From NCBI GenBank assembly GCA_050124445.1, contig JASFFF010000001.1:1-63572 (forward strand): a DNA stretch of 63,572 nucleotides, in the 5' to 3' direction. The notes below the pieces were generated by a model. That model was not told the DNA's origin, made no database searches, and was given only the letters and a program-made list of their open reading frames with translations. Numbering within the stretch: the stretch's first letter is position 1; each line of letters begins with the position of its first letter. Origin of the DNA: Desulfosarcina sp. (GTDB lineage Bacteria; Desulfobacterota; Desulfobacteria; Desulfobacterales; Desulfosarcinaceae). The position numbers and the translations under genes were made by a program. Of the stretch, positions 26,880-57,767 are shown one piece after another.

Positions 26880-26893
26880 TGTGGTAGACTCCT

Positions 26894-27487: not shown

Positions 27488-27488
27488 G

Positions 27489-29724: not shown

Positions 29725-29798
29725 GGCTCAACCTTTTATTGGTGCCGCGGTGAAAGATGATACCGTCGAGACAGATACATGGATGGGGGCTGCCTCGA

Positions 29799-32998: not shown

Positions 32999-33070
32999 AT
33001 TGATAGCTTGGTTTTACGGCTAACGGTGACATCGGATATTCATGGGACCATCAATCTTGACCGGTTGAAC

Positions 33071-33910
33071 CTACAGTTCAAACGACATGTCGCGGCCCAC
33101 GGCGAAACATTCCAGGGATTCACCCTTTTCAGAGATGATCTGCTGGCAATTCGCGACGATCTCATCCATCTGATCATCGGTGCGTTCCTGATTCAAATGA
33201 AACAACCCCAGTCGTTTGACGCCGGCTTGAAATGCCAAGGCAAGGGCGTCGGTGTAACTAGAGTGCCCCCATTCGGTAAGCTTGGAGTACTCGGCGTCGG
33301 TGTACTCACCATCGTGGATCAGCAGGTCCGCACCGGTGCAGAAGGCCACATAATCATCAAAGGGAAGTCCGCCGGGATGAACAAACCCCAGTTCATTGTC
33401 GGTGATGAAGATGAACGATTTCCCGTTCTCGATGAACTTGTAGCCTTTGCCGGTATTGGGGTGGCTGATGGGAATAGGGACCACGGTGGCAGATCCGATC
33501 TGAAACTCAGCCGGATGCCCTTCTTCCCATACAATTTTGGCTTTTAGGTCCGAGTAGCGGACCGGAAAATTGGGTGGCGCCATCACCTTGGAGAACATGC
33601 TTTGCATGAACTTTTTATGAAAGGGTGCCCGATGCATATGAATTTCGGTGCGGCTGAGAAACAGCGGTTTAAAGAAAGGGAATCCCATCAGGTGATCCCA
33701 ATGGCCATGGGTGAGAAGAAAGTTGTAGTGGTAACGGCCTTGGTCGATGAGATGGTTGCCCAAACGCCGGATGCCGGTGCCTGCATCGACGATGATGATA
33801 TCATCGCTGGCGGTGTGGATGTCCATGCAGGTCGTGTCGCCGCCGTACTTGATGTATTCTTTTCCGGAGACAGGTATAGATCCTCTGGAGCCCCAGCAGG
33901 TGATGACCAT
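33071..33910 (-). CDS. MBL-fold metallo-hydrolase (RNase Z / phosphodiesterase-like)
   Basis: WGSRGSIP, YGG.T.C, DAGTG, THGHWDH, TDNE, WGHS, LFH. Confidence 0.85.
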   Translation of the reverse strand: MVITCWGSRGSIPVSGKEYIKYGGDTTCMDIHTASDDIIIVDAGTGIRRLGNHLIDQGRYHYNFLLTHGHWDHLMGFPFFKPLFLSRTEIHMHRAPFHKKFMQSMFSKVMAPPNFPVRYSDLKAKIVWEEGHPAEFQIGSATVVPIPISHPNTGKGYKFIENGKSFIFITDNELGFVHPGGLPFDDYVAFCTGADLLIHDGEYTDAEYSKLTEWGHSSYTDALALAFQAGVKRLGLFHLNQERTDDQMDEIVANCQQIISEKGESLECFAVGRDMSFEL

Positions 33911-33936
33911 GGTCTGTCCTTTTTATCTCCGCATCG

Positions 33937-34770
33937 TCAATAGGTTGCACCATAGAAGGTGTGCCAGATACCGTCTTGATTCCACCGGTGGATGATGTCC
34001 ACTGGAAGATCGGCCAGCGTCGACTCGATATGTGCGGCTTCACGGCGCATCAATCCGGACAGAATGAAACGCTTTTTGCTTAGAAAACCCTTTGCGCGGA
34101 CCAGGTTTTTCATCACATCGTAATGAATGTTGGATACCACAAGGTCGCTCGTAAAGTCCATAAATATTTCAGCATCCCCTTGAACGACGAGGATCCTGTG
34201 CGCATGGTTATTGAGCTTTACATTGCGGTATGCCGTTCGGGCTGCCAGCAGGTTGAGATCCGTGGCCAGAACGGTTGGGCAGCCCAGCCGGGCTGCCGCC
34301 AGTGCCAGCAGGCCGGTGCCGGTGCCCAAATCCAGGGTCGTCTCTATGCGCTGGTCTTCAAATGCCATCTGTAGGGCGTTAAGGCAGTCACGCGTGGTGG
34401 GATGGGTGCCGGTGCCGAAAACAACCCCGGGATCGAGAATGATGGTGTTGCCGGTTCTGTGCGCCGCCACATCGATCCATGGGGGACAGATGGTGAAGCG
34501 ACCGATCCGGCAGGGGGTGATCTGACCGCCCTGCCACTGCTCGTAAGTCATGTGGTAATGATCTATCAGTTCCACATCGAGCAGGCCGCCGACCGTTTCT
34601 TCTACCAATGTCGTGCTCGGACGGGTGAAGAAAAGGAAGGAGAAGTCACCCTCTTCCCAACTGCCGATATAGTGATCCGGCTTGAATTGGCGGTCCGGCC
34701 GGAAGCGTCCGTTCAGGTAGTAGATGTACAGGTCCTGATAGGGATTGGCTGCATCGGGAGCGGGGATCAT
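33937..34770 (-). CDS. PrmA-like SAM-dependent methyltransferase
   Basis: LDPG..FGTG.HPTT, LDLGTGTG, NI and LSG motifs; N-terminus differs from canonical PrmA. Confidence 0.7.
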   Translation of the reverse strand: MIPAPDAANPYQDLYIYYLNGRFRPDRQFKPDHYIGSWEEGDFSFLFFTRPSTTLVEETVGGLLDVELIDHYHMTYEQWQGGQITPCRIGRFTICPPWIDVAAHRTGNTIILDPGVVFGTGTHPTTRDCLNALQMAFEDQRIETTLDLGTGTGLLALAAARLGCPTVLATDLNLLAARTAYRNVKLNNHAHRILVVQGDAEIFMDFTSDLVVSNIHYDVMKNLVRAKGFLSKKRFILSGLMRREAAHIESTLADLPVDIIHRWNQDGIWHTFYGATY

Positions 34771-34783
34771 CGTCGGGGATCGC

Positions 34784-35458
34784 CTATTTGTCCGGCAGTT
34801 GGTCCAGGTGCCACTCCATGGGGTCGATCAGTTTGTATCCTGCGCCGGTCAGTTTTTTCTTCACTTTGGCAACGTTGTTGGTGAGCAGGTAGGGAAAAAC
34901 AGCCCGCTTGCCTGTATCCCATGTCCGGGCGACCAGGACGCTGCCGAATGAGATGTTCTCTTCGGTAATCGCATCCACGATCTTTTTCAGCTGGCCGACC
35001 TTCTCCTCAACTTCGACGCCCACGAGGGTACCAGGCTGGCCGATGCCAAGCACGTTGGTGAATGCCCGCAGCAGATCCCGAACCGAAAGAATGCCTTTGA
35101 GCGCTCCCTTGTCGTCCACAACGGGAAAAGCGCCCACTTTTTCCTTCTGGATCATCAGCAGGGCATCCTGGATGGTGTACATGGGAGAAATGGTTTTGGG
35201 ATCGCGGGTCATGATTGCTTCGACTTTAAGTTGCGCGAGCTTCTCCCGTTCGACAGCACTCCCTTCTGACTTGATCAGGCTGTAGGGCATGGCACTGCGG
35301 ATATCCCGGTCGGTCACAATGCCGATCAGGTGGTTGTCGGCGTCCACGACGGGCAAGTGACGGATGCCGTTGGCCGCCATCTTTTCCTGAGCCTTAAAAA
35401 CAGATGCATCTTTGTCGATGGTGATGACTTCTGAAACCATGGATCGGCTGACAAACAT
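34784..35458 (-). CDS. AcuB-like CBS-pair plus ACT protein
   Basis: Two CBS domains (IRHLPVVD...GIVTDRD; FPVVD...GILSVRD) and a C-terminal ACT-like part; GGAGG RBS before ATG 35458. Confidence 0.85.
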   Translation of the reverse strand: MFVSRSMVSEVITIDKDASVFKAQEKMAANGIRHLPVVDADNHLIGIVTDRDIRSAMPYSLIKSEGSAVEREKLAQLKVEAIMTRDPKTISPMYTIQDALLMIQKEKVGAFPVVDDKGALKGILSVRDLLRAFTNVLGIGQPGTLVGVEVEEKVGQLKKIVDAITEENISFGSVLVARTWDTGKRAVFPYLLTNNVAKVKKKLTGAGYKLIDPMEWHLDQLPDK

Positions 35459-35673
35459 ATCGATATCCTCCAAATGATCAGTGATGAGTGTTGATCCAAA
35501 CGGGTATCTTGCGGTCCATGTCCGCGCTTGCGGGCGGTTGACATCTGCGATTGCGCCATGGCGTGATGTCCGCTGCGATCCCAATACTTCGCGGGCGTTG
35601 ATTTAAGAGAAATCCACCAAGGCCAAATAGACGTTGAGCCAGGGAATTGCATACATACCCGAAAAACCCGCTT

Positions 35674-36624
35674 TCATCCTTCGAGCAGGACCTTGACGTG
35701 GTTGGCGGCCAGCTCTCCCAGCCGTTCCAAACAATAGCCGCCTTCCAGCACGGATATCACCCTGCCGGCAGCATATTGGTTGCCCAGTTTCATGATCGTT
35801 TCCATGATCCAGGTATAGCCTTCGGTGGATAGATTCACGTCCGACATGTCGTCGTCGCTGTGACCGTCGAAACCGGTTGAGACGATGATGACTTCCGGTT
35901 TGAATCGCTCGAAGGCCGGTAGTAGGTCGCTTTGGATCAGCTTATGGTAAACGTCGTCCCCCTGACCGGGCAATATCGGCGAATTCAAGGTAAATCCCTG
36001 GCCGTCTCCGGCACCGGCTTCAAATTCGCGTCCGGTTCCCGGAAAGGCGAAGGACGGATGTTGGTGAATGGAGTAGTAAAATACCGTGGCGTCTTTTTCG
36101 AATATGTGCTGCGTACCATTGCCATGATGCACATCGAAGTCGATGATGGCCACCCGCTCGATGCCGTGGGCCATCTGCAGGTAACGGGCGGCGATGGCGA
36201 CATTGTTAAAGTAGCAAAAGCCCATGGCCTGGTCCACTTCGGCGTGGTGGCCGGGTGGGCGGACCGCACAAAAGGCGTTGTCCAATTCTCCCTCGATGAC
36301 CCGCCGTGCGACTTCCAGAATCCCTCCCACGGCTAAGTAGGCCGTTTCGTATGTATCGACGCACATTTGATTGTCGGGATAATCGAAGGTGCGGTTGCCG
36401 GACAGGCACACTTCCTCGAAACGACGGATATAGTGGGGATCATGAACGGTTTCGACCCACTTGCGGTCGGCGCGGACCGCGGGAAGGAGGGTTACCTGAT
36501 CCAGCAGGCCGGCCGCTTTGATACCGTTGTAGATAGCGGTAAGGCGTTCGGCCATCTCTGGATGATAGGGTCCTGTGTCGTGCAGCAGATACCTGTTGTC
36601 ATGCAAATAGCCGGTTCGTTTCAT
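35674..36624 (-). CDS. Zn-dependent histone deacetylase family protein (AcuC-like)
   Basis: HPE...R, RPPGHHA, GFC.FNN, DFDVHHGNGT, GFD.H..D, LEGGY. Confidence 0.92.
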   Translation of the reverse strand: MKRTGYLHDNRYLLHDTGPYHPEMAERLTAIYNGIKAAGLLDQVTLLPAVRADRKWVETVHDPHYIRRFEEVCLSGNRTFDYPDNQMCVDTYETAYLAVGGILEVARRVIEGELDNAFCAVRPPGHHAEVDQAMGFCYFNNVAIAARYLQMAHGIERVAIIDFDVHHGNGTQHIFEKDATVFYYSIHQHPSFAFPGTGREFEAGAGDGQGFTLNSPILPGQGDDVYHKLIQSDLLPAFERFKPEVIIVSTGFDGHSDDDMSDVNLSTEGYTWIMETIMKLGNQYAAGRVISVLEGGYCLERLGELAANHVKVLLEG

Positions 36625-36727
36625 AGACGTCCTTTTTCGTCCAGACTGGTTTAAAAAGGGCTGTAAGCGGTTACCGTTGTCCCAACGACGGTTTGCGGTT
36701 GCCGGTCTCCCAGCTTCCCATCCGTTG

Positions 36728-37477
36728 TTAGGGGATGATCCGATCGAAGATGGCAAAGGCTGCCTTCAGGGCCGGATTGCTCTCATCGATTTCGATGGTC
36801 GGCATGCCTTCCATATCGAATTCATACACCTGTTCATCATCCGGGATGGTGCCTGCCAATTCCAGGCCGTCCTTGTCGATCATCGCTTTGACTGCGTCGG
36901 ACGGATCGCGTTTGGCCTGGTTGATGATGATGTAGCATTTACCGGCGACGATATTGAGGTCCTTGGCCAGCTGGTTGATGCGGAGTCCTGCCTGTAGCCC
37001 CCGACGCGAGGTGTCGGTCACAATAAGCAGTACATCCACGTTCTTGGTGGTCAGCCGACTGAGGTGCTCCATGCCGGCTTCGTTGTCCATGATCACGTAG
37101 GGGTAGTTGCCGGAGAGCTTCTCCAGGAAGCCGGCCAGCAGTGTATTGGCGGCACAATAGCAGCCGGCGCCTTCTGGCTGACCCATGACCACCAGGTCAA
37201 ATCCCTGCTGCTCCATAATGGCCTGCTCAAGCTTCATGGACATAAAAACGTCTTTGGTCATGCCACTGGGAACAACCCCTTTTTTCATCTCCTCTCGGGC
37301 GTTGCCCAACGTTTCGGTGACCGCCAATCCCAGGACCTCGTTCAGGTTGGCGTTGGCATCGGCATCGACGGCCAGCACCGGGGACTTACCCTGATTGACC
37401 AGGTATTTGATCAGCATGCCGGAGACGGTGGTTTTTCCGGTTCCCCCTTTTCCGGCCATGGCAATGGATACGGGCAT
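36728..37477 (-). CDS. cooC: CO dehydrogenase/ACS nickel-insertion ATPase (CooC/AcsF family)
   Basis: GKGGTGKTT, DAD.N.NL, GCYC nickel motif, DNEAGMEHLSR. Confidence 0.9.
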   Translation of the reverse strand: MPVSIAMAGKGGTGKTTVSGMLIKYLVNQGKSPVLAVDADANANLNEVLGLAVTETLGNAREEMKKGVVPSGMTKDVFMSMKLEQAIMEQQGFDLVVMGQPEGAGCYCAANTLLAGFLEKLSGNYPYVIMDNEAGMEHLSRLTTKNVDVLLIVTDTSRRGLQAGLRINQLAKDLNIVAGKCYIIINQAKRDPSDAVKAMIDKDGLELAGTIPDDEQVYEFDMEGMPTIEIDESNPALKAAFAIFDRIIP

Positions 37478-37799: not shown

Positions 37800-38117
37800 A
37801 TGTTTGATCTGGTCAGAAAGAGTATGCTTGCCGGCGTGGGCCTGGCACTCAAAGCCTGGGATGAGGTGGAAGAGCTGGCCAAGGAGGTGGCCGAGCAGAG
37901 CAAGATGACGGAGAAAGAGGGCCGCAAGTTTATCGACGAGATTCAGATCCGCTATGAAGACGCCCAGAAAAAGCTGGAAGAGCGTGTTGAAAAAAGTGTC
38001 AAGGAACTGCTCAAAAAAGCCGACGTGGTAACCCAGGACGAACTCAAGGGCCTCAAAAAAGAGATCCGAGACCTGAAGCGGCTGATCAGTTCCCAGGGCG
38101 GCGAGGGATCCGAATGA
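37800..38117 (+). CDS. Phasin-like (PhaF/PhaI family) coiled-coil protein
   Basis: K..LAG.GLA....E...L........M.E.EG..F pattern, C-terminal T..EL..L...I..L; AAGGAG RBS. Confidence 0.75.
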   Translation: MFDLVRKSMLAGVGLALKAWDEVEELAKEVAEQSKMTEKEGRKFIDEIQIRYEDAQKKLEERVEKSVKELLKKADVVTQDELKGLKKEIRDLKRLISSQGGEGSE

Positions 38118-38127
38118 CGCGGCAGGC

Positions 38128-39825
38128 ATGATTAGCATTCGCAAAATCGGTGTGGTCGGCCGCACCTATCGCCATCTGAACCGATATCGACAGATCCTTG
38201 CGGTGCTGTTTAAATATGGTTTCGATGATATTGTCGAACTGTTAAAAATCGATCAATATATCGAGATCGGTCTGCAGGTAATCTCACGCAAGCGCGGCGA
38301 CCGGGTGGAACGGCTTTCCAGGGCGAGGCGGGTGCGTCTGGCCATTGAAGAGTTGGGCCCCACCTACATCAAGATGGGTCAGATCTTATCTACCCGACCC
38401 GACCTTGTGCCCGTGGATTTCATCCGCGAATTGGCGCGGCTACAGGATAAGGTCCCCGCCTTTCCCTTTTCCGAGGTCACCCGCATCATCCGCGAAGAAA
38501 CCGGCCGGCCGGCCGATGCCCGCTTCGAGCACCTGGATCCCGAGCCGTTGGCCTCGGCTTCCATCGGCCAGGTTCACCGGGCCCGGCTCAAGGACGGGGA
38601 GGCGGTGGCCGTAAAAGTCCAGCGGCCCGGAATCCGCAAAGTCGTTGAGGTGGACCTGGAAATTATGCTCCACCTGGCTACCCTGGCTGAACGGCACATC
38701 GAAGAGCTGGCCCATCACCGGCCGGTGAAGATCGTGGAGGAATTTGCTCGCTCCATCGAAAAGGAGATGGACTATACCTTGGAAGCCACCAGCATGGAAC
38801 GCGTGGCCCGGTCTTTTCTGCTGGACGAGACGGTTTATATCCCCAAGGTTTACCGAGAGGCCACGACCGAACGTGTGCTGACCACCGAATTCGTGGACGG
38901 CATCAAGGTCTCCCTGCTGGATCGATTGGACGAAAACGGTTACGACCGCCAACTGATCACCCGACGCGGCGCCGATATACTGCTGACCCAAATTTTCGAA
39001 CACGGCTTCTTCCATGCCGATCCCCATCCCGGCAATCTTTTCGTCCTGCCCAACAACATGATCTGCCTGCTGGATTTCGGTATGATGGGCACCGTAGACC
39101 GCAATACCCGCGAGGCATTTGTGGAACTGGTGGATGCCGTGGTGCGCCGTGATGAACCGCGCACCACCCAGGTGATGCTCAAGCTGACCCTCTGGGAAGA
39201 AGAGCCCGACCTGCGCCGACTGGGTAAAGATGTTGCCGATTTTATGGGTGAACATCTCTATAAGCCGCTCAGAGATATTCAGATCGGCAAACTGCTGCAT
39301 CACCTGCTGGAACTGGCCTCTCTACACGGGCTGCGCATCCCGCCCGAGCTTTTTTTAATGATGAAGTCGCTCAGCGCCGTCGAAGGGGTCGGTCTGATGC
39401 TGGATCCCGATTTTGACATGATCGCCCACGCCGAGCCCTTTATCCGCCAGGTCAAGCTCTCGCGGTTCTCCCCCGAACGCCTGGGGAGCGACGCGGTTAG
39501 TATTTTCGCCCAGTACATGGACTTCGTTCAGGAGTTTCCCAAGGACCTGCTGGAGATCACCCGTACCATCCGCCAAAAGAAGTTCACCTTCATGCTGGAT
39601 CTGAAAAACATGGAGAGCATGCTCGCCACCCACGATCAGATCAGCAACCGCATCTCTTTTTCGATCATCATCGCCGCCCTGATCATCGGCTCGGCCCTGA
39701 TCGTCATTTCCAAAACCCCGCCGCTATTCTATGGCATCTCTCTGATCGGCATCATCGGTTTCCTGGCCGCCGCCCTCATGGGGGTCTGGCTACTGGTGGC
39801 GATTATCAAGAAAGGCCGGCTGTAA
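38128..39825 (+). CDS. ABC1/AarF/UbiB family atypical kinase
   Basis: LGPTYIKMGQ, ASASIGQVH, VAVKVQRP, HADPHPGN, LDFG; two C-terminal TMs. Confidence 0.92.
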   Translation: MISIRKIGVVGRTYRHLNRYRQILAVLFKYGFDDIVELLKIDQYIEIGLQVISRKRGDRVERLSRARRVRLAIEELGPTYIKMGQILSTRPDLVPVDFIRELARLQDKVPAFPFSEVTRIIREETGRPADARFEHLDPEPLASASIGQVHRARLKDGEAVAVKVQRPGIRKVVEVDLEIMLHLATLAERHIEELAHHRPVKIVEEFARSIEKEMDYTLEATSMERVARSFLLDETVYIPKVYREATTERVLTTEFVDGIKVSLLDRLDENGYDRQLITRRGADILLTQIFEHGFFHADPHPGNLFVLPNNMICLLDFGMMGTVDRNTREAFVELVDAVVRRDEPRTTQVMLKLTLWEEEPDLRRLGKDVADFMGEHLYKPLRDIQIGKLLHHLLELASLHGLRIPPELFLMMKSLSAVEGVGLMLDPDFDMIAHAEPFIRQVKLSRFSPERLGSDAVSIFAQYMDFVQEFPKDLLEITRTIRQKKFTFMLDLKNMESMLATHDQISNRISFSIIIAALIIGSALIVISKTPPLFYGISLIGIIGFLAAALMGVWLLVAIIKKGRL

Positions 39826-39930
39826 CCCACGGCAAACGGTTGGATCATCGACCACTTTGTTTTGTGCTTCTCATGGTTGCGGCTATGGTCGATTCTGCGA
39901 TCGGAGGGGGTTTGATAAAAAAAATTCCGC

Positions 39931-39985
39931 TTGACAACCATAACGCACTGCATCATATTGTCGTTTATAACGCACTGCGTTATAA
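39931..39985 (+). promoter_or_regulatory. Sigma70 promoter overlapped by two candidate PhaR-type operators
   Basis: TTGACA-17nt-CATATT; ATAACGCACTGC occurs twice; second copy lies in the perfect palindrome TTATAACGCA-C-TGCGTTATAA (39965-39985). Confidence 0.65.
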
Positions 39986-40058
39986 CGGGCAGGGGCCCGA
40001 CAGGCTGATAAAAAAAACAGCCCACCATCTAACGGACAGAAAAACAAGGAGATTGATC

Positions 40059-40724
40059 ATGGCACAGGCAAAGACCCGAAAAGGCAGCCAGAAAAAAAGA
40101 ACGGCCAAGAACCGCTTTTATGTGGTCAACACCGTCCAGCGCACCGGCCGCCGGCTGAGCGACAAACTGGAAGATGTCAGCGACACCTATATTTCCGGAC
40201 CGATCAGAAACGGCAGGGCGAGGGTAACCGATTTGAGACAGGCGCCGCGCAAAACACTGTTTGGGTGGTTGGATGAGGGCAAGGAGATGATCACGGATCT
40301 GAACCAGGAGACCCGGTCGACGATGGACAAGATGGTCAAAGACGGCAAGGCGTTTTTGACCAACGTCGGCAAATCCCCGCGCAAGACCCTCGATGGCGTG
40401 CTGGATGACGGCAGGGCTTGGGTCGACGATCTGCGGGAAGACGCCTGCAGCCGCATGGCGGAATTAAAGACGGACACGCGTTCCATGCTTGCAGGAATCG
40501 GCAAGGATGCTCAGCTGGTGGTGGATGAGGTCGTTAGCGGTGGCCGGAAGGCGTTGGACAAGGTCCCCGGCAAGCGGACAGTCGAAAAGGCGGTACGCAT
40601 TCGGATCCGTAAGCTTCCTGCCCAGTTGAACATGCCCAGCAAGAAAGATATCGATGGTCTGTCGCGTCGGGTCAGCGCACTCAACAAAAAGGTCGATGCG
40701 CTCCATCGGACCGTGGCTGCCTGA
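40059..40724 (+). CDS. Amphipathic-helix granule-associated (phasin/apolipoprotein-like) protein
   Basis: AGGAG RBS and ATG 40059; repeated PRKTL.G.LD.G units; C-terminal LNMPSKKDIDGLSRRVSALNKKV phasin-type tail. Confidence 0.65.
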   Translation: MAQAKTRKGSQKKRTAKNRFYVVNTVQRTGRRLSDKLEDVSDTYISGPIRNGRARVTDLRQAPRKTLFGWLDEGKEMITDLNQETRSTMDKMVKDGKAFLTNVGKSPRKTLDGVLDDGRAWVDDLREDACSRMAELKTDTRSMLAGIGKDAQLVVDEVVSGGRKALDKVPGKRTVEKAVRIRIRKLPAQLNMPSKKDIDGLSRRVSALNKKVDALHRTVAA

Positions 40725-40776
40725 AACGGGTCTTGAATGAAATTCGAATCTTTGCAAACACAATGAGGAGCAGATT

Positions 40777-41205
40777 ATGCGCATAATCAAAACCTACGCC
40801 AACGGCCGATTCTACGACACCCTCAACAAAAGGTACATGGGCAAGGAGCAACTGGCGTCCTTGCTTGAGAAAAAAGAAGCCATTAAAATCATCATGCACA
40901 AAACCGACAGCGATGTGACCCAATCGGTGGCCAAGCAGCTGGCCCCGTTGATGCGCACCGAATCCGGGGCGCGGTTCAACATCGACAACCTGAGGCAATG
41001 GGTGTCTGATCAGGTCGATCGGCGAATTGAAAAGGCCGTCGCATTGGTTAATCTTCCTACGCGAGACCAGATACGCCGTCTGACCATTGATATCGAAACA
41101 CTCACCAAGCAGGTGGATGGACTGCAAGATCGCCTGGTTAAAGTGAAAACGCCTGTGGAAACACCCCCGGCCGATGCGGCAATGGCAGTCGGCCCACAGA
41201 CCTAA
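40777..41205 (+). CDS. PhaR-like regulator (PHB-accumulation N-terminal DNA-binding domain plus phasin-type tail)
   Basis: MRIIKTYANGRFYDT..K.Y matches the PhaR IKKY.NRRLYDT motif; DVT; LPTRDQI..L...I..L tail. Confidence 0.75.
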   Translation: MRIIKTYANGRFYDTLNKRYMGKEQLASLLEKKEAIKIIMHKTDSDVTQSVAKQLAPLMRTESGARFNIDNLRQWVSDQVDRRIEKAVALVNLPTRDQIRRLTIDIETLTKQVDGLQDRLVKVKTPVETPPADAAMAVGPQT

Positions 41206-41514
41206 CGACCTTCTAAAGGCCATTGCTTTTTTCGTCCTGTCCGATATGGTGAACGCCATTCACCAGCAGCGATGGTGAAAGCGAAGCGGCGGCGCTGCGC
41301 TGGCTTCCAGGACCGTGGCGCCGCAACTCGCCCGGGATGACCGCAGCGGCGAGGGTTAGACCGCGCGACCATACGGCGTTGCATTTACGACCATGCACAT
41401 CGGGCCGGCCTCCGTCGGCAGGCCCGGTTCCCGCCTTGGTATACCTACTGCTGCCGGGCGAGGCGCAGATGGACAAACGGATTCTATAACCTTGCGGCAT
41501 TACCTTTCCCACCG

Positions 41515-41739
41515 GTGCATATGGATGTTTTGACAGACAACCGTCCAGCCAGGTATCATGTCAACCAGCAATGTATCGGTTGCTGCATCTGTTCCGCGAT
41601 AGCTCCCCGAAATTTTCGGACCGACCATGAGCGCGGGTTGGATTATGTTTGCAAGCAGCCGGACAGTCCGGAAGAGGAACAATTGTGTGCCGAGGCCATG
41701 GATATCTGTCCGGTCAACGCCATCGACCGGCATGCGTAA
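41515..41739 (+). CDS. Single-cluster ferredoxin
   Basis: CIGCCIC...AP.NF......V.KQP...EE...C..A...CPVNAI. Confidence 0.8.
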   Translation: MHMDVLTDNRPARYHVNQQCIGCCICSAIAPRNFRTDHERGLDYVCKQPDSPEEEQLCAEAMDICPVNAIDRHA

Positions 41740-41776
41740 AGACGCGTGGGCTCGATAAAGCGCATCGAAGCCCGAT

Positions 41777-43864
41777 ATGGCACGTCAGGAGGAAACTGTG
41801 AAACAGGTGGTCAGCATCAGTTTGGGATCAAGCCAAAAGGACTATTCGTTCAACACCGAATTTCTGGGGCAGGAATTTACCATCAACCGCTTGGGCACCG
41901 ATGGCGATCTGGAAAAGGCCGCCGAACTGCTGCTGCGCATGGATAAAGAGGCGGATGCCATCGGGCTTGGTCAGATCAAGTATCCTTATGGGATCGGCCC
42001 ACGCTACCTGAACAAATACAAACATCATAAAATTAAAGATCTGGGCGGTCAGCTGCAAACACCGGTCACCATCGGCAGTGCGCTGCGGGATGTCTCCTTC
42101 GAGTGGGCCCTGCGCTATATCGAATACAAATTCGGCAACTACTTCAGCAATGTCCGGGTGTTGTTTTTTTCAGGCATGTACAATTACCGGATTGCCAAGG
42201 TGATGTCCGAGTTTACGGATAACTTGACCTTTGCCGACCCGATCCTGGAAAATGGCATCCCCAAGTTTATCAATTCCCTGGACGACCTAACGGCCTATGC
42301 CCATTCGGCCCATGAGGTCTTGCAATGGGTTCCCAGCCAGCGGTTGACCGACTCGGTCATGCCGATCAAGGCGTGGAACGACTATATTCTTCGCAAAGCC
42401 ATGCAAAAAGCCTCGATCATCGTCGTTCCCAATTACGGATTCGACGGATATCTGGAAAACGCCACCCTCGAGGAATTGGGCGGCAAGACCATTATTTCCT
42501 CCACTGTGGACGATGATCGGGTAGCCTTTTTGAAAGAACGCGGGGTGGATGTCATCATCGACACGACCCCCAAAATCCTCCAGCGTGTGGTGGCACCCAA
42601 TGCGTTGGAGGCCCTGATCCTTGCCGCGCTGGAACGCAAAAGCGATCAGGTCGATGCGGATGATCTGCTGGAACTGATCAGTGCCCAGAAAATGGATCCA
42701 CGGGTGGTCTATCCGTCGGGCAGCGCCAAACGTGTCAACCGGTTTGCCTTTGTGATCCATCCGCTCTCCAAAGAGTTTCTCAAGAAGGACAAGGCCGTAA
42801 AAATGCTGGCCGACTTCACGCCACCCGCATTTCTGGATGCGGTCGAAAAGGTGATTGCCTACGCGCCCCCATGGGTCTATTCCCGCGTCACCGGCATCAA
42901 GTCGCCGACAGGCGTGGAAGCCGAGGGATGGCTGCTGACGGTTGGCGGCACGCCCAAGCAGATGCTGGCCCATGACCCGGAATTCACCTACTCGCGGTTG
43001 CTCCAGGCCGCGCGCATGGCCAAGCGCATGGGTGCACAGATCATGGGGCTGGGCGCATTCACCAAGGTGGTTGGCGATGCAGGGGTTACCGTAGCCAAGA
43101 AAGCCAATATCCCCATTACCACCGGCAACAGCTACAGTGCCTCCGGCGCGCTCTGGGCCGCCGCCGATGCGGTTCGCCGCATGGGGCTGATCAAAATTGA
43201 AAAAGGCCGGCGTATCCAGGCCAAAACCATGGTCTTGGGGGCGACCGGGGCGATTGGATCGGTGTGCTGCCGGTTGTTGGCCAAGGCCTTTGGCGAAGTC
43301 TATCTGGTTGGCCGCAACACCGCCAAACTGCTGGCGATGAAAGAATCGATCCACAAGGAGGACCCGGATGTCAAGCTGACCGTGACCACCCGCCCTAACA
43401 AATATCTGGCCGATATGGATGTGATCGTCACGGCCACCTCGGGTGCGGGCAAGAAGATTCTGGATATCACCAAGGTCAAGCCGGGCTGCGTGATCACGGA
43501 TGTGGCCCGTCCCTTGGACCTCTCCCCGGAGGATGTGGCCAAGCGGCCGGACGTGTTGGTGATCGAATCGGGGGAAATTGAACTGCCCGGCAACCCGGAG
43601 ATGGGAAATATCGGCCTGCCCGACAAAGTGGCCTATGCTTGCCTGGCCGAAACCATCGTTTTGGCATTAGAGGGGCGCTTTGAGATCTTTACCATCGGCC
43701 GGGACATCGAATGGGAAAAGGTGAAAGAGATCTATAAACTCGGCCTCAGGCACGGCATGAAACTGGCCGCGATTTCCGGCGTCAACGGTGTGTTTTCGGA
43801 TGATGATATCGCACGGGTCACAAAACTTGCCCTGGAAGCCAAAAGTCAACGACCACCCGTTTAG
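41777..43864 (+). CDS. Two-domain acyl-ACP/CoA reductase-like protein (C-terminal AAR/COG5322 domain), catalytic Cys present
   Basis: FAFVIHP, GIKSPTG.EAEGW, GLGAFT, TTGNS, GATGAIG, DVARP.D, YACLAE (Cys622). Confidence 0.75.
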   Translation: MARQEETVKQVVSISLGSSQKDYSFNTEFLGQEFTINRLGTDGDLEKAAELLLRMDKEADAIGLGQIKYPYGIGPRYLNKYKHHKIKDLGGQLQTPVTIGSALRDVSFEWALRYIEYKFGNYFSNVRVLFFSGMYNYRIAKVMSEFTDNLTFADPILENGIPKFINSLDDLTAYAHSAHEVLQWVPSQRLTDSVMPIKAWNDYILRKAMQKASIIVVPNYGFDGYLENATLEELGGKTIISSTVDDDRVAFLKERGVDVIIDTTPKILQRVVAPNALEALILAALERKSDQVDADDLLELISAQKMDPRVVYPSGSAKRVNRFAFVIHPLSKEFLKKDKAVKMLADFTPPAFLDAVEKVIAYAPPWVYSRVTGIKSPTGVEAEGWLLTVGGTPKQMLAHDPEFTYSRLLQAARMAKRMGAQIMGLGAFTKVVGDAGVTVAKKANIPITTGNSYSASGALWAAADAVRRMGLIKIEKGRRIQAKTMVLGATGAIGSVCCRLLAKAFGEVYLVGRNTAKLLAMKESIHKEDPDVKLTVTTRPNKYLADMDVIVTATSGAGKKILDITKVKPGCVITDVARPLDLSPEDVAKRPDVLVIESGEIELPGNPEMGNIGLPDKVAYACLAETIVLALEGRFEIFTIGRDIEWEKVKEIYKLGLRHGMKLAAISGVNGVFSDDDIARVTKLALEAKSQRPPV

Positions 43865-43870
43865 CGGATG

Positions 43871-43907
43871 GCTTGTCATTCCGGCCAACGGCCGGAATGG
43901 CCCAAGC
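43871..43907. repeat. Intergenic stem-loop between the two reductase paralogs
   Basis: CATTCCGGCC-AAC-GGCCGGAATG stem extended by GCTTG / CAAGC. Confidence 0.55.
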
Positions 43908-43994
43908 ATGTCAGTGCCTAAATGGTTGCGGTTGTGACCGTGTGCAACGCACCCGGTTTGAAGACAACAATCAACAAATGGTTAGTTAGCGGAG

Positions 43995-46058
43995 GTGCTT
44001 GTGAAACAGATCATCCAAATCAGTTTGGGTCCCAGCTTGGACGACATCGAATTCGAAACGGAATTTTTAAAACAACCGTTTCACATCCGGCGTCTGGGAA
44101 CCGATGGGGATGTGGAGCAAGCCTCCGACTTGCTGCTTAAGTGGAACAAGCGGGCTGATGCCATCGCCTTGGGCGGTATTCGTTCAGCCCAAACCATGCA
44201 CCCAAAGCATGCTTCGAAAAAGGATCTGGTCCGGCTGTTGGAACTTGGATCCAAACTGGAGACCCCCGTGACATCCGGCAACATGCTTCGCCTGGTGGGC
44301 CACGAATGGTCACTGCGTCATATCCAATTCAAGCTGGGCAACAACTATTTCAACAATGCCCGGGTATTTTTTTTCTCAGGGCGATCGAGTCGCACCATCG
44401 CCAAGGTCATGGCGGAGTACAGCCAAAACCTGATATTTGCCGATGCCCTGCTGGAAAATGGGGTTCCCAAGTTGGTCGACGGGCTGAAGGATTTCAAGCT
44501 TTACAACGGCCGTCTGCGGGACGTGTTGGCATGGGTTCCCGGGAAAAGCATGTTCACGGACAGCGAACCGGTGCGCAGGATGATCAACCATCTACTGCGA
44601 CAGGCGGTGCATGATGCGCATATCCTGGTGGTTCCCCACCACCAATTTTTTAAATTTCTGGACCCTTTTAGCATCGACGATCTCAAATCCAAAACAGTGA
44701 TCACTTCTACGGTGTATGACGACCGGATCGATTACCTGAAAGACAAGGGGGTCGACGTGATCATCGACACGACGCCCAAGCTGTTGGACAGTGTTGCCGG
44801 CGTGAGCGTGTTGGAAGCGATGCTGCGGGTTGCCTTCGATATCCCCAAGGGCGAAGCAAGCGACGACGAATTGCTCGAGATCATTAGCAATATGCAAATG
44901 GAGCCCCGCATCATTTATCCTGCTGGAAAACCCAAACGGGTCAACCGCTTCGCCTATGTGATCCATCCGCCGAGCCAGGACTATCTGAAAAAGCTCAAGC
45001 CCGTCGAGGTGTTGTCGGACCTTGCACCGGGCATGATGAATACGGTCGAAAAGGTCATGGCCTACGCCCCGCCCTTCGTCTACTCCACGGTTCGGGGAAT
45101 CCGTTCGAAAACCGGTGTGGAGGCCGAAGGATGGCTGATCGCCCTCGGGGTCACGCCGGAGCAGATGCAGGCCCACGGACCCGAATTCACCACCAAACGA
45201 ATCCTGGAAGCTGCCGAGATTGCCAAAAAGAAGGGTGCCCAGATAATGGGCATCGGCCTGCTGCCCAAAGCGATGAAGGACACCAGCCTGGACGTAGCCA
45301 AGCACGCCGTGCTCCCCATCACCACGGGTAATAGTTATTTTGCTTCCTCAGCCTTGTGGGCCGGTGCCGAGGCCGTTCGCAAGATGGGCATGACCCGGCT
45401 CAAACACGGGAAGGTGCTGCGGGCCAAAGCCATGGTTGTCGGTGCCACCGGGGCGGTGGGGGTGATTTGTTCGCACCTATTGGCCAGGGCCTTCGAAGAA
45501 ATCTACTTGGTCGGCCGAAATATCGCCAAGCTGCTGGCCCTGCAGGAGTCCGTTCAAAAAGAAGTTCCCTCGGTCAAGCTGCGCGTCTCCACGCGGGCAG
45601 ACAAGAATCTAAGCCAGATGGATATGATCGTGGCCACCAGTTCCGGTGCCCGTGCTGTCCTGGATATTATGCAGATCAAACCCGGCGGTGTGATTGTCGA
45701 TATCAATCTGCCGAGTATTTTTACCAAGGAGACGGTTGCCAAACGCCCCGATGTGATGATCATTCGTGGCGGAGAGATTCGTTTGCCCGGCGATCATGTG
45801 GAGATGAAAGATATCGGCCTTCCACCCGGCGTCGTCTATGCCGGACTCGCCGAAACGATCACCCTGGCCCTGGAGGGTCGTTTCGAGGTGTTCACCGTCG
45901 GCGCTGCACCCCAATGGGACAAGGTCCGGGAAATTTATCGTTTGGGCTTAAAGCATGGCATGCAGTTGGCAGCCATCTCCGGTGTTGATGGGATCTATTC
46001 CGACGAAGAGATTACCAGAGCCAAGGCATTGGCAATCAAGGAACGCAATCGAGCATGA
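43995..46058 (+). CDS. Paralogous two-domain AAR-like protein, catalytic Cys replaced by Gly
   Basis: Colinear with 41777-43864 (ISLG.S, DVIIDTTPK, KRVNRFA, TTGNS, GATGAVG) but YAGLAE (Gly617); GTG start after GGAGG. Confidence 0.75.
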   Translation: MLVKQIIQISLGPSLDDIEFETEFLKQPFHIRRLGTDGDVEQASDLLLKWNKRADAIALGGIRSAQTMHPKHASKKDLVRLLELGSKLETPVTSGNMLRLVGHEWSLRHIQFKLGNNYFNNARVFFFSGRSSRTIAKVMAEYSQNLIFADALLENGVPKLVDGLKDFKLYNGRLRDVLAWVPGKSMFTDSEPVRRMINHLLRQAVHDAHILVVPHHQFFKFLDPFSIDDLKSKTVITSTVYDDRIDYLKDKGVDVIIDTTPKLLDSVAGVSVLEAMLRVAFDIPKGEASDDELLEIISNMQMEPRIIYPAGKPKRVNRFAYVIHPPSQDYLKKLKPVEVLSDLAPGMMNTVEKVMAYAPPFVYSTVRGIRSKTGVEAEGWLIALGVTPEQMQAHGPEFTTKRILEAAEIAKKKGAQIMGIGLLPKAMKDTSLDVAKHAVLPITTGNSYFASSALWAGAEAVRKMGMTRLKHGKVLRAKAMVVGATGAVGVICSHLLARAFEEIYLVGRNIAKLLALQESVQKEVPSVKLRVSTRADKNLSQMDMIVATSSGARAVLDIMQIKPGGVIVDINLPSIFTKETVAKRPDVMIIRGGEIRLPGDHVEMKDIGLPPGVVYAGLAETITLALEGRFEVFTVGAAPQWDKVREIYRLGLKHGMQLAAISGVDGIYSDEEITRAKALAIKERNRA

Positions 46059-47773
46059 TCTTCAGGCAGTGGCGGAAACTGAGCAATCACATGGCGCGTT
46101 TTTTTGTCAATGACGGCCCGGCCCGGTTGATAAACGGCTGTTACAACGCTTACAGCATGTTATATCGCGGTCAGCTCAGCTTGGGGCTGCCCGTTTCAAA
46201 GACGCTGATCGTCAGCCAGGCGGAAATCAAAGACAGGGCGATTCGCAAGCTCGCCTTGGCCCTTTACCATATTATTCTCAATGCAACCCGCCGTCAGATG
46301 GTAAGGGCGGACATTCAGCGGGTCATCTCCGAAGAACTCTCCAGCGGGCGACTTCGATTGACAGAAAGTGCCATTTTTCTGACCGAAGCGCAATTGACCG
46401 GCCTGATGCTCGAGCAATTAAAGATCCCTGAAAAGCATATGCCTCAGATTCTGGATATTGCTCGTCGGCGCCGTATCCTAAGCGAGTGGTTGCGTACCGA
46501 TCCGGGGCCGATCTATTTTGAAAGCGAGATCGAAGAAAAAGAACAAAACGGGCGCGGCGATTACGAAACGGTTTACTACCGCAATTACACGGACGAGGGC
46601 AAAGAGATCGGATTTCGCCGCATGGTTAGCATGGAAGGGGTCACCGCGGGCGACAACCGTGCGGCGGTAATATTGATTCCCGGTTTCGCCAACAACAGCA
46701 ACTGTTTCAACATCAGCAACCGCTACTCACTGGCCAAAGACATAGCCGATAAGAATCAATGGGTTTACCTGTTTGATCCCCGGGGGGTGGGGGTTAATCA
46801 GGGACGCTTCGATCCGCTGTACACCGTGGACACCATGATCGATTACGACCTTGCCACCTTGGTGCGCTTCATCCATAAACGCAGCTGCGGCAAGCCATCC
46901 ATTCTGATCGGGCACAGCATGGGCGGACTGGTCGCTGAAAACATGGTGCTCAACTGGGCGCTTGCCCGCCGGATGCCCGAGATCGACGAACTCGATCCGC
47001 AGCAGAAAGAACTGCTGGGCCAGGTGCTGCCGTCGGCCCATACGGCGGGCGAATACCTAAAGATGGTGCGCGGGATTGTCTCATTGGGTGCGCCTAAGGT
47101 TTTTCGTAAACAATCCCACGTTTTTTTTCCGACGTCGCTATGGTTGAATCACCTCTCGAGAACCTTTCGCTTTCGGCAGGTTCCGGTTAAAGAAATTTCC
47201 AAGGTTCTCACCGAGCTTCCTGTGCTCAAACAGGTCACGCGTTTGATTGTCAATCACAATGTGGGGGACTTAAACTTTCTGGTCTCACCGGAAAATCACA
47301 AGGATGATAAGTATTTCGTAGAGCGCTACTTGAAAACCGCCACCGAATCGATACCGTTGGGCCTCGGTTTTCAGTGTCTGAAAGCCATCTACAATGGCCA
47401 GGGCTTCAAGCGCATGGACGGCAGCCGACTGAACTATTCAGACTGCTTGCCCTGGTTCCCGGAGACCATCCCCGTTTTTCATTTCTGGGGCACGCGTGAC
47501 AGACTGGTGCCTTTAGAGAATTTGCGTTACCGCAAGCATTATCCTCACAAGAACAAAAAGATCTACCACCTCGAATCGCCCGATGATCTACGAAAAATTA
47601 ACCTAACCGCAGAGCGCAGCCAGCTCATCGATTTTGTGATAGAGGGAGCCAATCATCTTGACCTGCTTTACGGCAAACTTGCCGATCAATTGGTCAGGCC
47701 TTTAATCGTGCAGATTATTGAGAAGGTATGGGGTGATTGGGCTTACGATACCCTCCCCGATGGGTCGGAATAG
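46055..47773 (+). CDS. Alpha/beta hydrolase (Ser nucleophile) with N-terminal extension
   Basis: LIPGFA, FDPRG.G, GHSMGG (Ser288), WG..D.LV, NHLDLL; ATGA overlap with the upstream gene. Confidence 0.75.
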   Translation: MIFRQWRKLSNHMARFFVNDGPARLINGCYNAYSMLYRGQLSLGLPVSKTLIVSQAEIKDRAIRKLALALYHIILNATRRQMVRADIQRVISEELSSGRLRLTESAIFLTEAQLTGLMLEQLKIPEKHMPQILDIARRRRILSEWLRTDPGPIYFESEIEEKEQNGRGDYETVYYRNYTDEGKEIGFRRMVSMEGVTAGDNRAAVILIPGFANNSNCFNISNRYSLAKDIADKNQWVYLFDPRGVGVNQGRFDPLYTVDTMIDYDLATLVRFIHKRSCGKPSILIGHSMGGLVAENMVLNWALARRMPEIDELDPQQKELLGQVLPSAHTAGEYLKMVRGIVSLGAPKVFRKQSHVFFPTSLWLNHLSRTFRFRQVPVKEISKVLTELPVLKQVTRLIVNHNVGDLNFLVSPENHKDDKYFVERYLKTATESIPLGLGFQCLKAIYNGQGFKRMDGSRLNYSDCLPWFPETIPVFHFWGTRDRLVPLENLRYRKHYPHKNKKIYHLESPDDLRKINLTAERSQLIDFVIEGANHLDLLYGKLADQLVRPLIVQIIEKVWGDWAYDTLPDGSE

Positions 47774-57748: not shown

Positions 57749-57767
57749 CGCAACAGGAGAATAGAAT

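What the first reader, a model, noticed from the sequence alone, without database searches (positions are those of the whole stretch)
37800..47773. Candidate lipid-inclusion system without a PHA synthase: phasins, ABC1 kinase, PhaR, ferredoxin, two acyl reductases and a Ser hydrolase
Seen: eight co-oriented genes encode two phasin-like proteins, an ABC1 kinase, a PhaR-like regulator, a ferredoxin, two roughly 690-aa proteins with an acyl-ACP reductase (AAR)-like domain, and an alpha/beta hydrolase. No phaC, phaA, phaB or WS/DGAT (HHxxxDG) gene lies in the window. Known: phasins and PhaR coat and sense PHA granules, AAR turns acyl thioesters into fatty aldehydes, and ABC1 kinases associate with lipid droplets such as plastoglobules. 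Inference: granule machinery is coupled here to fatty aldehyde/alcohol production, giving a non-PHA store (wax ester) or feeding alkyl-ether lipids, which are reported in some sulfate reducers. I do not know of a described pathway with this gene set.
Basis: partly seen in the sequence, partly recalled or inferred. Interest (0 to 1): 0.85.

Follow-up and report, generated by a model that had tools for sequence, protein, structure and literature searches.

The report
Wax-storage gene cluster in sulfate reducers
These eight genes belong to a conserved cluster of sulfate-reducing bacteria whose wax-ester synthase gene was likely dropped from this contig by an assembly shortcut; the full cluster is predicted to make and store waxes with an undescribed kind of fatty-acyl reductase and would use its own bioplastic-granule-style coat proteins and repressors.

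Summary
The eight genes are real, but the premise 'no WS/DGAT, no PHA synthase' fails. The genome holds class III phaC and phaE on other contigs, and a WS/DGAT. The window very likely jumps across an 804-bp repeat (the second phasin gene, 39921-40724), skipping about 7.2 kb: WS/DGAT, an Fe-alcohol dehydrogenase-SCP2 fusion, a patatin, an unknown gene and a second PhaR-like gene. Own contigs C469+C549 tile that gap, long-contig relatives show the intact order, and public contigs branch at both repeat ends.

Corrected, it is a conserved wax-ester cluster. The AAR-like reductase and WS/DGAT co-occur in 39 of 251 genomes (3 and 2 alone). No phaC lies in 80 loci, and 10 of 42 carriers gave no PhaC match. 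Only reductase 1 keeps the catalytic Cys (78/78); reductase 2 has Gly (48/48). The cluster's two PhaR-like proteins group apart from phaC-linked PhaR, and a palindromic box sits before the phasin, not at phaEC.

No known fatty-acyl reductase type was found in five genomes tested. Nothing is shown biochemically. The scan noted this reductase system before on other DNA; the misjoin and the operator circuit did not appear in the notes I retrieved. New variant; interest 0.66.

The parts
37800..38117 (+). Phasin-like protein A (105 aa), paired with the ABC1 gene; accessory member
   Evidence: PF05597 25.6 bits, under cut-off; same position before ABC1 in both long-contig relatives checked (91-94% identity)
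38128..39825 (+). ABC1/UbiB-type atypical kinase (565 aa); accessory member
   Evidence: PF03109 284 bits; TIGR01982 466.7, under 487.55; an ABC1 gene lies in 14 of 35 full-flank loci, at three different positions
39921..40724 (+). 804-bp two-copy repeat (promoter + phasin B gene); the window enters by copy 1 and leaves by copy 2, skipping about 7.2 kb
   Evidence: Run X3: one 805-nt contig from 39921 to 40724 with two entries and two exits, depth 11 against 4-7 beside it; copies 99.5-99.7% identical in L024 and L031; entry sequences match copy 1 and copy 2 of relatives
39931..39959 (+). Sigma70-like promoter (TTGACA-17-CATATT) of phasin B
   Evidence: Pattern scan, 10 of 12 matches; consensus match only
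39940..39956 (.). Palindromic box 1 (ATAACGCA-C-TGCATCAT), overlapping the promoter spacer and -10; candidate PhaR-type operator
   Evidence: GC-N3-GC core as in the PhaR box of PMC10888616
39967..39983 (.). Palindromic box 2 (ATAACGCA-C-TGCGTTAT), 27 bp after box 1; candidate operator
40059..40724 (+). Phasin-like protein B (221 aa, pI 10.3); predicted coat protein; the duplicated gene
   Evidence: PF05597 30.4 bits; in 27 of 35 full-flank loci; C469 begins with its last 241 bp
40724..40725 (.). Branch point: the other exit leads to WS/DGAT, Fe-ADH-SCP2 (C469/C549), then patatin, a 222-aa unknown gene and PhaR-like 2 on the opposite strand
   Evidence: Loose ends at 40724 in X2, X3, X7 equal C469's sequence; C469 and C549 overlap exactly by 127 nt and the Fe-ADH frame is open across the overlap
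40777..41205 (+). PhaR-like protein 1 (PHB_acc_N domain + phasin-like tail), cluster-specific group
   Evidence: PF07879 44.9 bits; TIGR01848 37.1, under 109.45; own branch in tree, 100/98
41521..41739 (+). Single-cluster ferredoxin (CxxCxxC...CP); role not resolved
   Evidence: PF13370 58 bits; in 65 of 80 loci, all 65 with the full Cys pattern
41777..43864 (+). AAR1: N-module (likely degenerate AAR-fold copy) + intact AAR-fold reductase; catalytic Cys622 at 43640-43642
   Evidence: Cys622 aligns to Cys294 of cyanobacterial AAR; 78 of 78 orthologs keep it; model pLDDT 89.6, Z 31.4, rmsd 3.5 over 326 residues to 6jzq
43844..43974 (.). Dispersed ~130-bp repeat inserted between the two reductase genes; not part of the system
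   Evidence: 71 blastn hits on 62 contigs, 47 of them 100 bp or longer; gap is 11 bp in L012
43995..46058 (+). AAR2: paralog (53% identical) with Gly617 in place of the catalytic Cys, Rossmann glycine motif kept; likely non-catalytic partner or Cys-independent reductase
   Evidence: Gly in 48 of 48 orthologs; in 27 of 35 full-flank loci
46055..47773 (+). Alpha/beta Ser hydrolase (572 aa); predicted lipase/wax esterase, not a PhaC (Ser, not Cys, nucleophile)
   Evidence: PF12146 50.9 bits; GHS[ML]GG in 40 of 40 orthologs

Best explanation
The genes are most of a conserved neutral-lipid cluster whose WS/DGAT-bearing middle was likely skipped by the assembler, and the whole cluster is predicted to make, coat and recycle wax-ester bodies independently of the cell's PHA system. 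Predicted flow: AAR1 takes a long-chain acyl group from acyl-CoA or acyl-ACP onto Cys622 and releases a fatty aldehyde with NAD(P)H; the Fe-alcohol dehydrogenase with its SCP2 lipid-binding domain reduces it to a fatty alcohol; WS/DGAT joins the alcohol to a second acyl-CoA; phasin-like proteins coat the wax body; the Ser hydrolase and the patatin mobilise it. The two cluster-specific PhaR-like proteins would repress phasin B and neighbouring genes through the palindromic boxes and be titrated off the DNA as wax bodies form, as PhaR does on PHB. AAR2 (Cys to Gly) is likely a non-catalytic partner of AAR1 or a Cys-independent reductase; ABC1 kinase and phasin A are accessory. Shown: gene content, order, motifs, fold, co-occurrence, operator-like boxes. 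Inferred: every activity, the product, the direction of flux, protein localisation and DNA binding.
For: Intact 14-gene order in long-contig relatives L012 and L031; own contigs C469+C549 tile the missing part; branching contigs with about double depth over the repeat in X2 and X3. WS/DGAT with HHxxxDG (HHCITDG in C469; PF03007 + PF06974) in 31 of 35 full-flank loci, Fe-ADH in 27 of 35; Fe-ADH carries SCP2 (30.4 bits, cut-off 21.3). Order-wide sample of 251 genomes: AAR1 and WS/DGAT both in 39, AAR1 alone 3, WS/DGAT alone 2, neither 207. Separate gammaproteobacterial order: 16 of 16 AAR1 carriers have WS/DGAT, against 72 of 185 others. No FcrA and no FarA/AcrB-level match in 5 of 5 carriers tested. 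No PhaC-like gene in 80 of 80 loci; 10 of 42 carriers gave no TIGR01836 match at 1e-15, and G199, G139, G123 also gave no PhaE or PhaC_N match yet carry phasins and PhaR-like genes. Three separate PhaR groups. Box: 83 hits in 80 loci against 4-9 in 3 shuffles, 56 just upstream of phasin B; not near phaC in G000, G063, G095, G133. AAR + alcohol dehydrogenase + wax synthase gave wax-ester lipid bodies when co-expressed in a cyanobacterium (PMC3594298, abstract).
Against: No experiment on any member. AAR1 is only 23-26% identical to AAR and far below the family cut-off (68.8 vs 449.7 bits); the same fold with the same Cys serves an uncharacterised, putatively amidating domain (9e4s, Z 29.7). WS/DGAT enzymes can make triacylglycerol instead. 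28 of 42 carriers do have class III PhaC (67%, against 74 of 209 others, 35%), so the phasins could also coat PHB. 4 of 35 full-flank loci have no WS/DGAT nearby, and the 12 gammaproteobacterial loci seen (about 1.5 kb each side) show no ferredoxin or cluster. Acr1-type SDR reductases were not searched. In run X1 one contig runs through the repeat into PhaR1 with no branch listed at 40724, and short-read contigs cannot phase 804 bp, so a real deletion in part of the population is not excluded. Genomes are kin, so the tables overstate independence.
Confidence: 0.72

Rival explanations
1. Same cluster, but the store is mainly triacylglycerol or another neutral ester, and the reductase/dehydrogenase pair mainly runs backwards, oxidising fatty alcohols released by the hydrolases (wax or alkane-derived alcohol catabolism).
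For: WS/DGAT is bifunctional and both redox steps are reversible in principle (general knowledge); two lipases and, in 13 loci, an AMP-binding acyl-CoA ligase sit in or by the cluster.
Against: No phosphatidate phosphatase or acyltransferase family recurs in 5 or more loci; tight AAR1-WS/DGAT co-occurrence and lack of other fatty-acyl reductases in 5 of 5 genomes fit alcohol supply.
Confidence: 0.13
2. The phasins and PhaR-like proteins serve ordinary PHB made by the unlinked phaEC; the reductase and WS/DGAT genes merely sit beside them.
For: Own genome has phaC and phaE; 28 of 42 carriers have class III PhaC.
Against: phaC has its own PhaR group nearby in 18 of the 19 rows of that group (positions; tree; the own-genome row C223 is on another contig than phaC); G199, G139, G123 keep phasins and PhaR-like genes without any PhaC or PhaE match; phasin/PhaR genes occur with WS/DGAT in 28 of 28 full-flank loci that have them; the box is absent near phaC in 4 genomes.
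Confidence: 0.06
3. The fatty alcohols feed alkyl-ether membrane lipids.
For: Sulfate reducers make alkyl ethers; some fatty-acyl reductases serve ether lipids (PMC11948995 section 20). G199, G139 and G123 have unlinked 564-601-aa FAD-oxidases of unknown type.
Against: In Desulfatibacillum alkenivorans ethers are made by glycerol ester reductase from esters (PMC11150832 passages); no ether-synthase-like family recurs in the loci; own genome gave only a 481-aa PF02913 match; WS/DGAT and phasins point to storage.
Confidence: 0.04
4. AAR1/AAR2 use the AAR fold for other chemistry (acyl transfer, amidation or a PigE-like step) and are not the alcohol source.
For: Best sequence match is the PigE N-terminal domain (182 bits; 4ppm); carmabin TAD shares fold and Cys.
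Against: No aminotransferase domain, NRPS or PKS family recurs in the loci; constant partner is an alcohol dehydrogenase with a lipid-binding domain.
Confidence: 0.05

Closest known systems
Bacterial wax-ester pathway (WS/DGAT with FarA, AcrB, FcrA or Acr1 + aldehyde reductase; Acinetobacter, Marinobacter, Natronomonas)
   Same: WS/DGAT with intact HHxxxDG; predicted acyl-thioester to alcohol to wax route
   Different: Reductase is an AAR-fold two-module protein, none of the three profiled types found in 5 genomes; strict anaerobe; one cluster with Fe-ADH-SCP2, ferredoxin, lipases, phasins and PhaR-like genes. PMC11948995 finds FarA in 1%, AcrB in 31%, FcrA in 26% of WS/DGAT bacteria, so at least about 40% lack all three.
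Cyanobacterial acyl-ACP reductase AAR (TIGR04058; PDB 6jzq/6jzu/6jzz)
   Same: Fold (Z 31.4), TTGN motif, Rossmann glycine motif, Cys622 = Cys294
   Different: Extra 315-aa N-module; 23-26% identity; under family cut-off; neighbours are alcohol dehydrogenase and wax synthase, not a deformylating oxygenase; comes with a Cys-less paralog
PhaR-phasin circuit of PHA granules (Paracoccus, Bradyrhizobium, Cupriavidus)
   Same: PHB_acc_N domain, phasin-like genes, tandem GC-N3-GC boxes about 75-110 bp before the phasin gene (phaP1 boxes at -101 and -72 in PMC10888616)
   Different: Two cluster-specific PhaR-like groups with phasin-like tails, apart from the phaC-linked PhaR; no phaC in the locus; kept in genomes with no PhaC match
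PigE N-terminal domain (prodigiosin; NF053554, 4ppm) and carmabin terminal amidation domain (9e4s)
   Same: AAR-type fold with the conserved Cys
   Different: No fused aminotransferase, no NRPS/PKS context
Plant CER1/CER3 pair
   Same: Two homologous proteins of which one carries the AAR-like catalytic Cys (PMC13326499 passages)
   Different: Analogy only: membrane hydroxylase domain and alkane product are absent here; an AAR1-AAR2 complex was not tested

Membership tests
WS/DGAT wax-ester pathway | WS/DGAT with both domains and HHxxxDG | tested here: met
   C469 gene: PF03007 135 and PF06974 152 bits, HHCITDG; outside the window, behind the second phasin copy
WS/DGAT wax-ester pathway | A known fatty acyl reductase (FarA, AcrB, FcrA) | tested here: not met
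   5 genomes: no PF00368 match; PF07993 only partial matches up to 63.7 bits in frames of 327-476 aa, the one 692-aa frame being a 340-aa epimerase-like gene
WS/DGAT wax-ester pathway | Acr1-type SDR reductase | not tested
   SDR family too broad for a profile test
WS/DGAT wax-ester pathway | Wax esters accumulate in inclusions | not testable with these tools
   Needs lipidomics and microscopy
Cyanobacterial AAR (TIGR04058) | Score over curated cut-off | tested here: not met
   68.8 and 54.5 bits vs 449.7
Cyanobacterial AAR (TIGR04058) | AAR fold and catalytic Cys (AAR1) | tested here: met
Cyanobacterial AAR (TIGR04058) | Catalytic Cys (AAR2) | tested here: not met
   Gly in the window and in 48 of 48 orthologs
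Cyanobacterial AAR (TIGR04058) | Partner aldehyde-deformylating oxygenase gene | tested here: inconclusive
   No such family recurs among neighbours; no genome-wide family search was run
PHA granule system | PHA synthase in the locus | tested here: not met
   0 of 80 loci; unlinked phaC/phaE in own genome
PHA granule system | PhaR DNA-binding domain and phasin domain | tested here: met
   PF07879 44.9 bits; PF05597 30.4 bits for phasin B (phasin A 25.6, under cut-off)
PHA granule system | Canonical PhaR (TIGR01848; phaC-linked group) | tested here: not met
   37.1 vs 109.45 bits; separate branch (only 70 columns, support rough)
PHA granule system | Binding to granules and to operator DNA | not testable with these tools
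   Boxes are conserved but binding is inferred
PigE / terminal amidation domain | Fused aminotransferase or NRPS module | tested here: not met
   NF053554 match covers only profile positions 1-358 of 837; no NRPS family among recurring neighbours
UbiB (TIGR01982) | Score over curated cut-off | tested here: not met
   466.7 vs 487.55; ABC1 superfamily membership met

The most novel reading that the evidence does not exclude
Sulfate reducers of this order run a self-contained wax-ester storage organelle system: a fourth type of bacterial fatty-acyl reductase (an internally duplicated AAR fold working with a Cys-less partner subunit and a ferredoxin) feeds WS/DGAT, and a PhaR-phasin feedback circuit, so far known from PHA granules, has been duplicated and re-dedicated to wax bodies, so that wax synthesis can act as a carbon and electron sink in anoxic sediments (a bacterial counterpart of Euglena wax-ester fermentation; Euglena recalled, not from a call).
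Probability: 0.4. Interest if true: 0.82.

Novelty: new variant of a known kind. Interest (0 to 1): 0.66.

Why it matters
If true it supplies a missing fatty-alcohol route for part of the roughly 40% or more of WS/DGAT-bearing bacteria that lack all three profiled reductases (figures from PMC11948995). It would put wax-ester storage in abundant strict anaerobes, for which PMC10351704 (2023) states that wax or triacylglycerol accumulation had not been reported. It would also show that PhaR and phasin-like genes do not by themselves mark PHA metabolism. All steps are testable with ordinary heterologous expression and lipid analysis. It also warns that near-identical phasin duplicates can delete the key gene from short-read assemblies.

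Tried and rejected
Single-sequence fold of AAR1: pLDDT 35, unusable; redone with a 116-row alignment. AAR1-ferredoxin complex prediction: no answer, score 0.00, neither for nor against. An AAR1-AAR2 complex was not run (1382 residues, over the limit). N-module identity: no Pfam or PDB sequence match; it exists as stand-alone ~300-aa proteins (Atlas names 'putative quinate 5-dehydrogenase'; structure rows tagged PF30885, a family not in the local Pfam); profile alignment to the C-module is weak (P 0.029, probability 1.7%, 204 columns in register; 10 shuffled controls P 0.11 or worse, 50 columns or fewer), so 'degenerate AAR copy' stays likely, not shown; fold searches were filled by the C-module. 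PF02913 search for an ether synthase was too broad to decide. RNA run X7 has contigs over phasin B (depth 533), PhaR1 and WS/DGAT, but contig depth cannot rank genes, the repeat is two-copy and no silent control was laid, so it is not used as evidence of expression. C366 (593-aa PhaC-like, 73.8 bits) and C313 are weak PhaC-like matches not tied to this cluster. Terminator scan no better than chance (16 vs 12.4). Literature searches for wax esters in these taxa or for this gene set found no description; the library lacks most subscription journals. A word search of earlier scan notes for the operator circuit and a look-up on this genome returned nothing. Rejected: horizontal 'PHA-free' uniqueness of the window; ABC1 and phasin A as core members (14 of 35 loci; absent beside the cluster in G199 and G063).

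Full report
OBSERVATION. The eight ORFs exist at the stated place and strand. Families: phasin-like A (PF05597 25.6 bits, under cut-off), ABC1 kinase, phasin-like B (30.4, over), PhaR-like (PF07879 44.9), ferredoxin, two proteins whose C-terminal halves match PigE-N (182 and 136 bits) and AAR (69 and 55 bits) far under the cut-offs, and a Ser hydrolase. No phaC, phaA, phaB or WS/DGAT family was hit among 48 window proteins scanned. So the window-level description holds.

THE GENOME CHANGES THE PICTURE. The genome (3.9 Mb, 560 contigs, 86% complete) has class III PhaC on C400, PhaE on C273, a high-scoring PhaR on C223 and one WS/DGAT on C469. C469 starts with 241 bp that are 99.6% identical to the end of phasin B and diverges right at its stop codon, then encodes WS/DGAT (HHCITDG) and the start of an Fe-ADH. 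C469 overlaps C549 by exactly 127 nt, the commonest overlap length in this assembly, with the Fe-ADH frame open across it. C549 carries the rest of Fe-ADH, a patatin, a 222-aa gene with no Pfam hit and a second PhaR-like gene. C400 and C469 have unremarkable tetranucleotide distances (ranks 96 and 65 of 249).

THE WINDOW IS VERY LIKELY A COLLAPSED REPEAT. Of 153 related loci the best 80 were kept; the closest (91-94%) include records titled Desulfosarcina sp. In L012 and L031 the order is CooC | phasin A, ABC1, phasin B, WS/DGAT, Fe-ADH, <patatin, <unknown, <PhaR2, phasin B, PhaR1, ferredoxin, AAR1, AAR2, hydrolase. The two phasin B copies with their promoters are 99.7% (L031), 99.5% (L024) and 77% (L012) identical and 7.1-7.7 kb apart; C469 and C549 map onto the part between them. 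In run X3 one 805-nt contig covers exactly 39921-40724 at depth 11, beside 4-7; in X2 the repeat is at 13-17, beside 6-7.5; a second entry is seen at 39921 (X1, X2, X3) and a second exit, equal to C469, at 40724 (X2, X3, X7). The WS/DGAT stretch lies at about flank depth in X2 and X3 (about 4-6.5 on the longer contigs). The window's entry resembles copy 1 of L012, the other entry resembles copy 2 of five relatives. Against: X1 shows one contig through the repeat into PhaR1; these runs may include the source sample; contig depth is not copy number; about 230 bp between C549 and the second entry are not in the assembly. A recombinational deletion in some cells is possible, but the segment is present in the population.

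CONSERVATION. In 35 of 80 loci with at least 9 kb upstream and 4 kb downstream: WS/DGAT 31, ferredoxin 28, PhaR2 28, Fe-ADH 27, phasin B 27, AAR2 27, hydrolase 26, unknown gene 24, PhaR1 21, patatin 20, ABC1 14; phasin/PhaR genes occur with WS/DGAT in 28 of 28; no PhaC-like gene in any of the 80. Order and orientation are reshuffled between lineages while content is kept. An acyl-CoA ligase recurs in 13 loci. Across 251 genomes of the order, AAR1 was found in 42 and WS/DGAT in 41, both in 39, neither in 207. Class III PhaC over cut-off was in 102 of 251: by my tally of the tables 28 of the 42 carriers, 4 more with weaker matches, 10 with none. All 42 have a PhaR-type domain. In a gammaproteobacterial order, 16 of 201 genomes have AAR1 and all 16 have WS/DGAT, against 72 of 185 others; there the gene mostly stands alone, in one locus beside a gene that begins like an extended-SDR reductase (L124; label from my reading). 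Kin are not independent, so no P value is given.

THE REDUCTASES. AAR1 Cys622 aligns with Cys294 of Synechococcus AAR (counted from the alignment; 6jzz is the C294S mutant; Cys294 forms the acyl-enzyme according to bioRxiv 2024.10.28.620694, passages). With orthologs assigned by best BLAST hit, Cys is in 78 of 78 AAR1-type and Gly in 48 of 48 AAR2-type proteins over 600 aa; both keep GA[TS]GxxG and TTGN, while AAR2 also loses LGAFTK and DVARP. The model (pLDDT 89.6, pTM 0.86) matches AAR over residues 322-680 (Z 31.4, rmsd 3.5, 326 aligned) and the carmabin terminal amidation domain (Z 29.7); the next fold is at Z 13. The N-module repeats the strand-helix order of the C-module and aligns weakly in register. 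Earlier scan notes had called it a degenerate copy; my test is compatible but weak. Many lineages lack AAR2 and have Fe-ADH, ferredoxin and AAR1 side by side (L068-L083), so the core is AAR1 + Fe-ADH-SCP2. FcrA and FarA/AcrB were not found in G000, G199, G063, G139, G123.

A DEDICATED PhaR CIRCUIT. A 70-column tree of 55 PhaR N-domains (19 from regions chosen by high score, 18 of them within about 6 kb of phaC; every second cluster protein) gives three groups: phaC-linked (100/98), cluster PhaR1 (100/98), cluster PhaR2 (85/85); support is rough. A palindrome ATRAYGCA-N-TGCRTYAT occurs twice before phasin B, overlapping a sigma70-like promoter, and once before the unknown-patatin pair. Across 80 loci a window-derived pattern gave 83 hits in 43 loci against 4, 6 and 9 in shuffles; 56 lie just upstream of phasin B. 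Genome-wide (one mismatch) there are 3-7 sites in five genomes, mostly in the cluster, also before a displaced phasin B (G095) and a displaced PhaR2 (G063), none near phaC; 2 of 20 phaC-linked PhaR regions had a two-mismatch hit. The core GC-N3-GC and tandem spacing resemble the tested phaP1 boxes of Bradyrhizobium (PMC10888616, passages).

MECHANISM (inferred). Acyl-CoA/ACP to aldehyde (AAR1, Cys thioester, NAD(P)H), to alcohol (Fe-ADH-SCP2), to wax ester (WS/DGAT); phasins coat; hydrolase and patatin mobilise; PhaR1/2 couple body size to phasin expression. The three-enzyme chemistry has worked in an engineered cyanobacterium (PMC3594298, abstract and outline only). The ferredoxin's role is open. 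Confidence 0.72; rivals are listed separately.

KNOWN AND NEW. Wax storage, AAR chemistry and PhaR-phasin control are each known; their union, the two-module reductase and the Cys/Gly pair were not found in nine literature searches (listings and abstract starts only, except the papers named). PMC11948995 (passages and section 20) profiles three reductase types and leaves many WS/DGAT bacteria without one; its supplements, not read, may list Desulfobacterota. PMC10351704 (passages) says wax/TAG accumulation was unreported in Deltaproteobacteria and could not resolve their synteny. PMC11150832 (passages) assigns ether lipids of D. alkenivorans to glycerol ester reductase. PMC13326499 (passages) gives the CER1/CER3 analogy. 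The scan had noted the reductase system on other genomes; these are unchecked AI notes and not counted as support. My reading was written down before that look-up.

VERDICT. New variant of a known kind; interest 0.66; bold reading probability 0.4, interest 0.82.

Noticed in passing
window 43844-43974: A ~130-bp dispersed repeat with a 11-12-bp perfect hairpin (fold z -2.6) sits between AAR1 and AAR2; 71 hits on 62 contigs, another copy at about 25352-25483. REP/MITE-like, label from my reading.
   Followed up: partly
L031 911-1707 and 8179-8975; L024 325-1134 and 8023-8832; L012 1051-1855 and 8149-8963: The two phasin B copies are 99.5-99.7% identical within L031 and L024 but 77% in L012, which suggests ongoing gene conversion or repeated duplication.
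   Followed up: partly
L005 708-1376 (C549): A conserved 222-aa gene with no Pfam hit lies behind its own operator-like box and before the patatin, in 24 of 35 full-flank loci; function open.
   Followed up: partly
L005 2-526 (C549): PhaR2 ends in a phasin domain plus AAPRKK repeats, a basic tail like that of Pseudomonas PhaF (comparison recalled).
   Followed up: no
G226:C31:18499-19437; P0126-P0270: The N-module of AAR1 exists as a large stand-alone ~300-aa family (741 clusters at E 0.001 incl. fragments and fusions), common in Chloroflexota by Atlas labels, auto-named quinate 5-dehydrogenase.
   Followed up: partly
L002 772-2553 (C366): A 593-aa PhaC-like protein with AYCMGG (TIGR01836 73.8 bits, under cut-off) between a MaoC-like gene and an acyl-CoA dehydrogenase; possible second polyester synthase.
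   Followed up: no
genome G000: The tool files this genome in family f1, whose 7 sampled members lack the cluster, while the 92%-identical AAR1 genes are in family f50: lateral gain or a labelling matter; not resolved.
   Followed up: no
L020, L032, L033, L043 (downstream of the hydrolase): In one sub-lineage a second Fe-ADH, an aldehyde:ferredoxin oxidoreductase (7 loci) and a stand-alone SCP2 gene (5 loci) follow the cluster; could link the ferredoxin to aldehyde metabolism.
   Followed up: no
window 32243-37477: Reverse-strand run of Sir2 deacylase, metallo-beta-lactamase-fold protein, PrmA-like methyltransferase, CBS protein, histone-deacetylase-family protein and CooC-like ATPase, divergent from the cluster.
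   Followed up: no
window 23218-32191: Rnf-type complex genes with a flavoprotein and a RACo-type ATPase; ordinary for this group.
   Followed up: no
window 55211-58148: CHASE2-Ser/Thr kinase followed by an FHA-domain gene.
   Followed up: no
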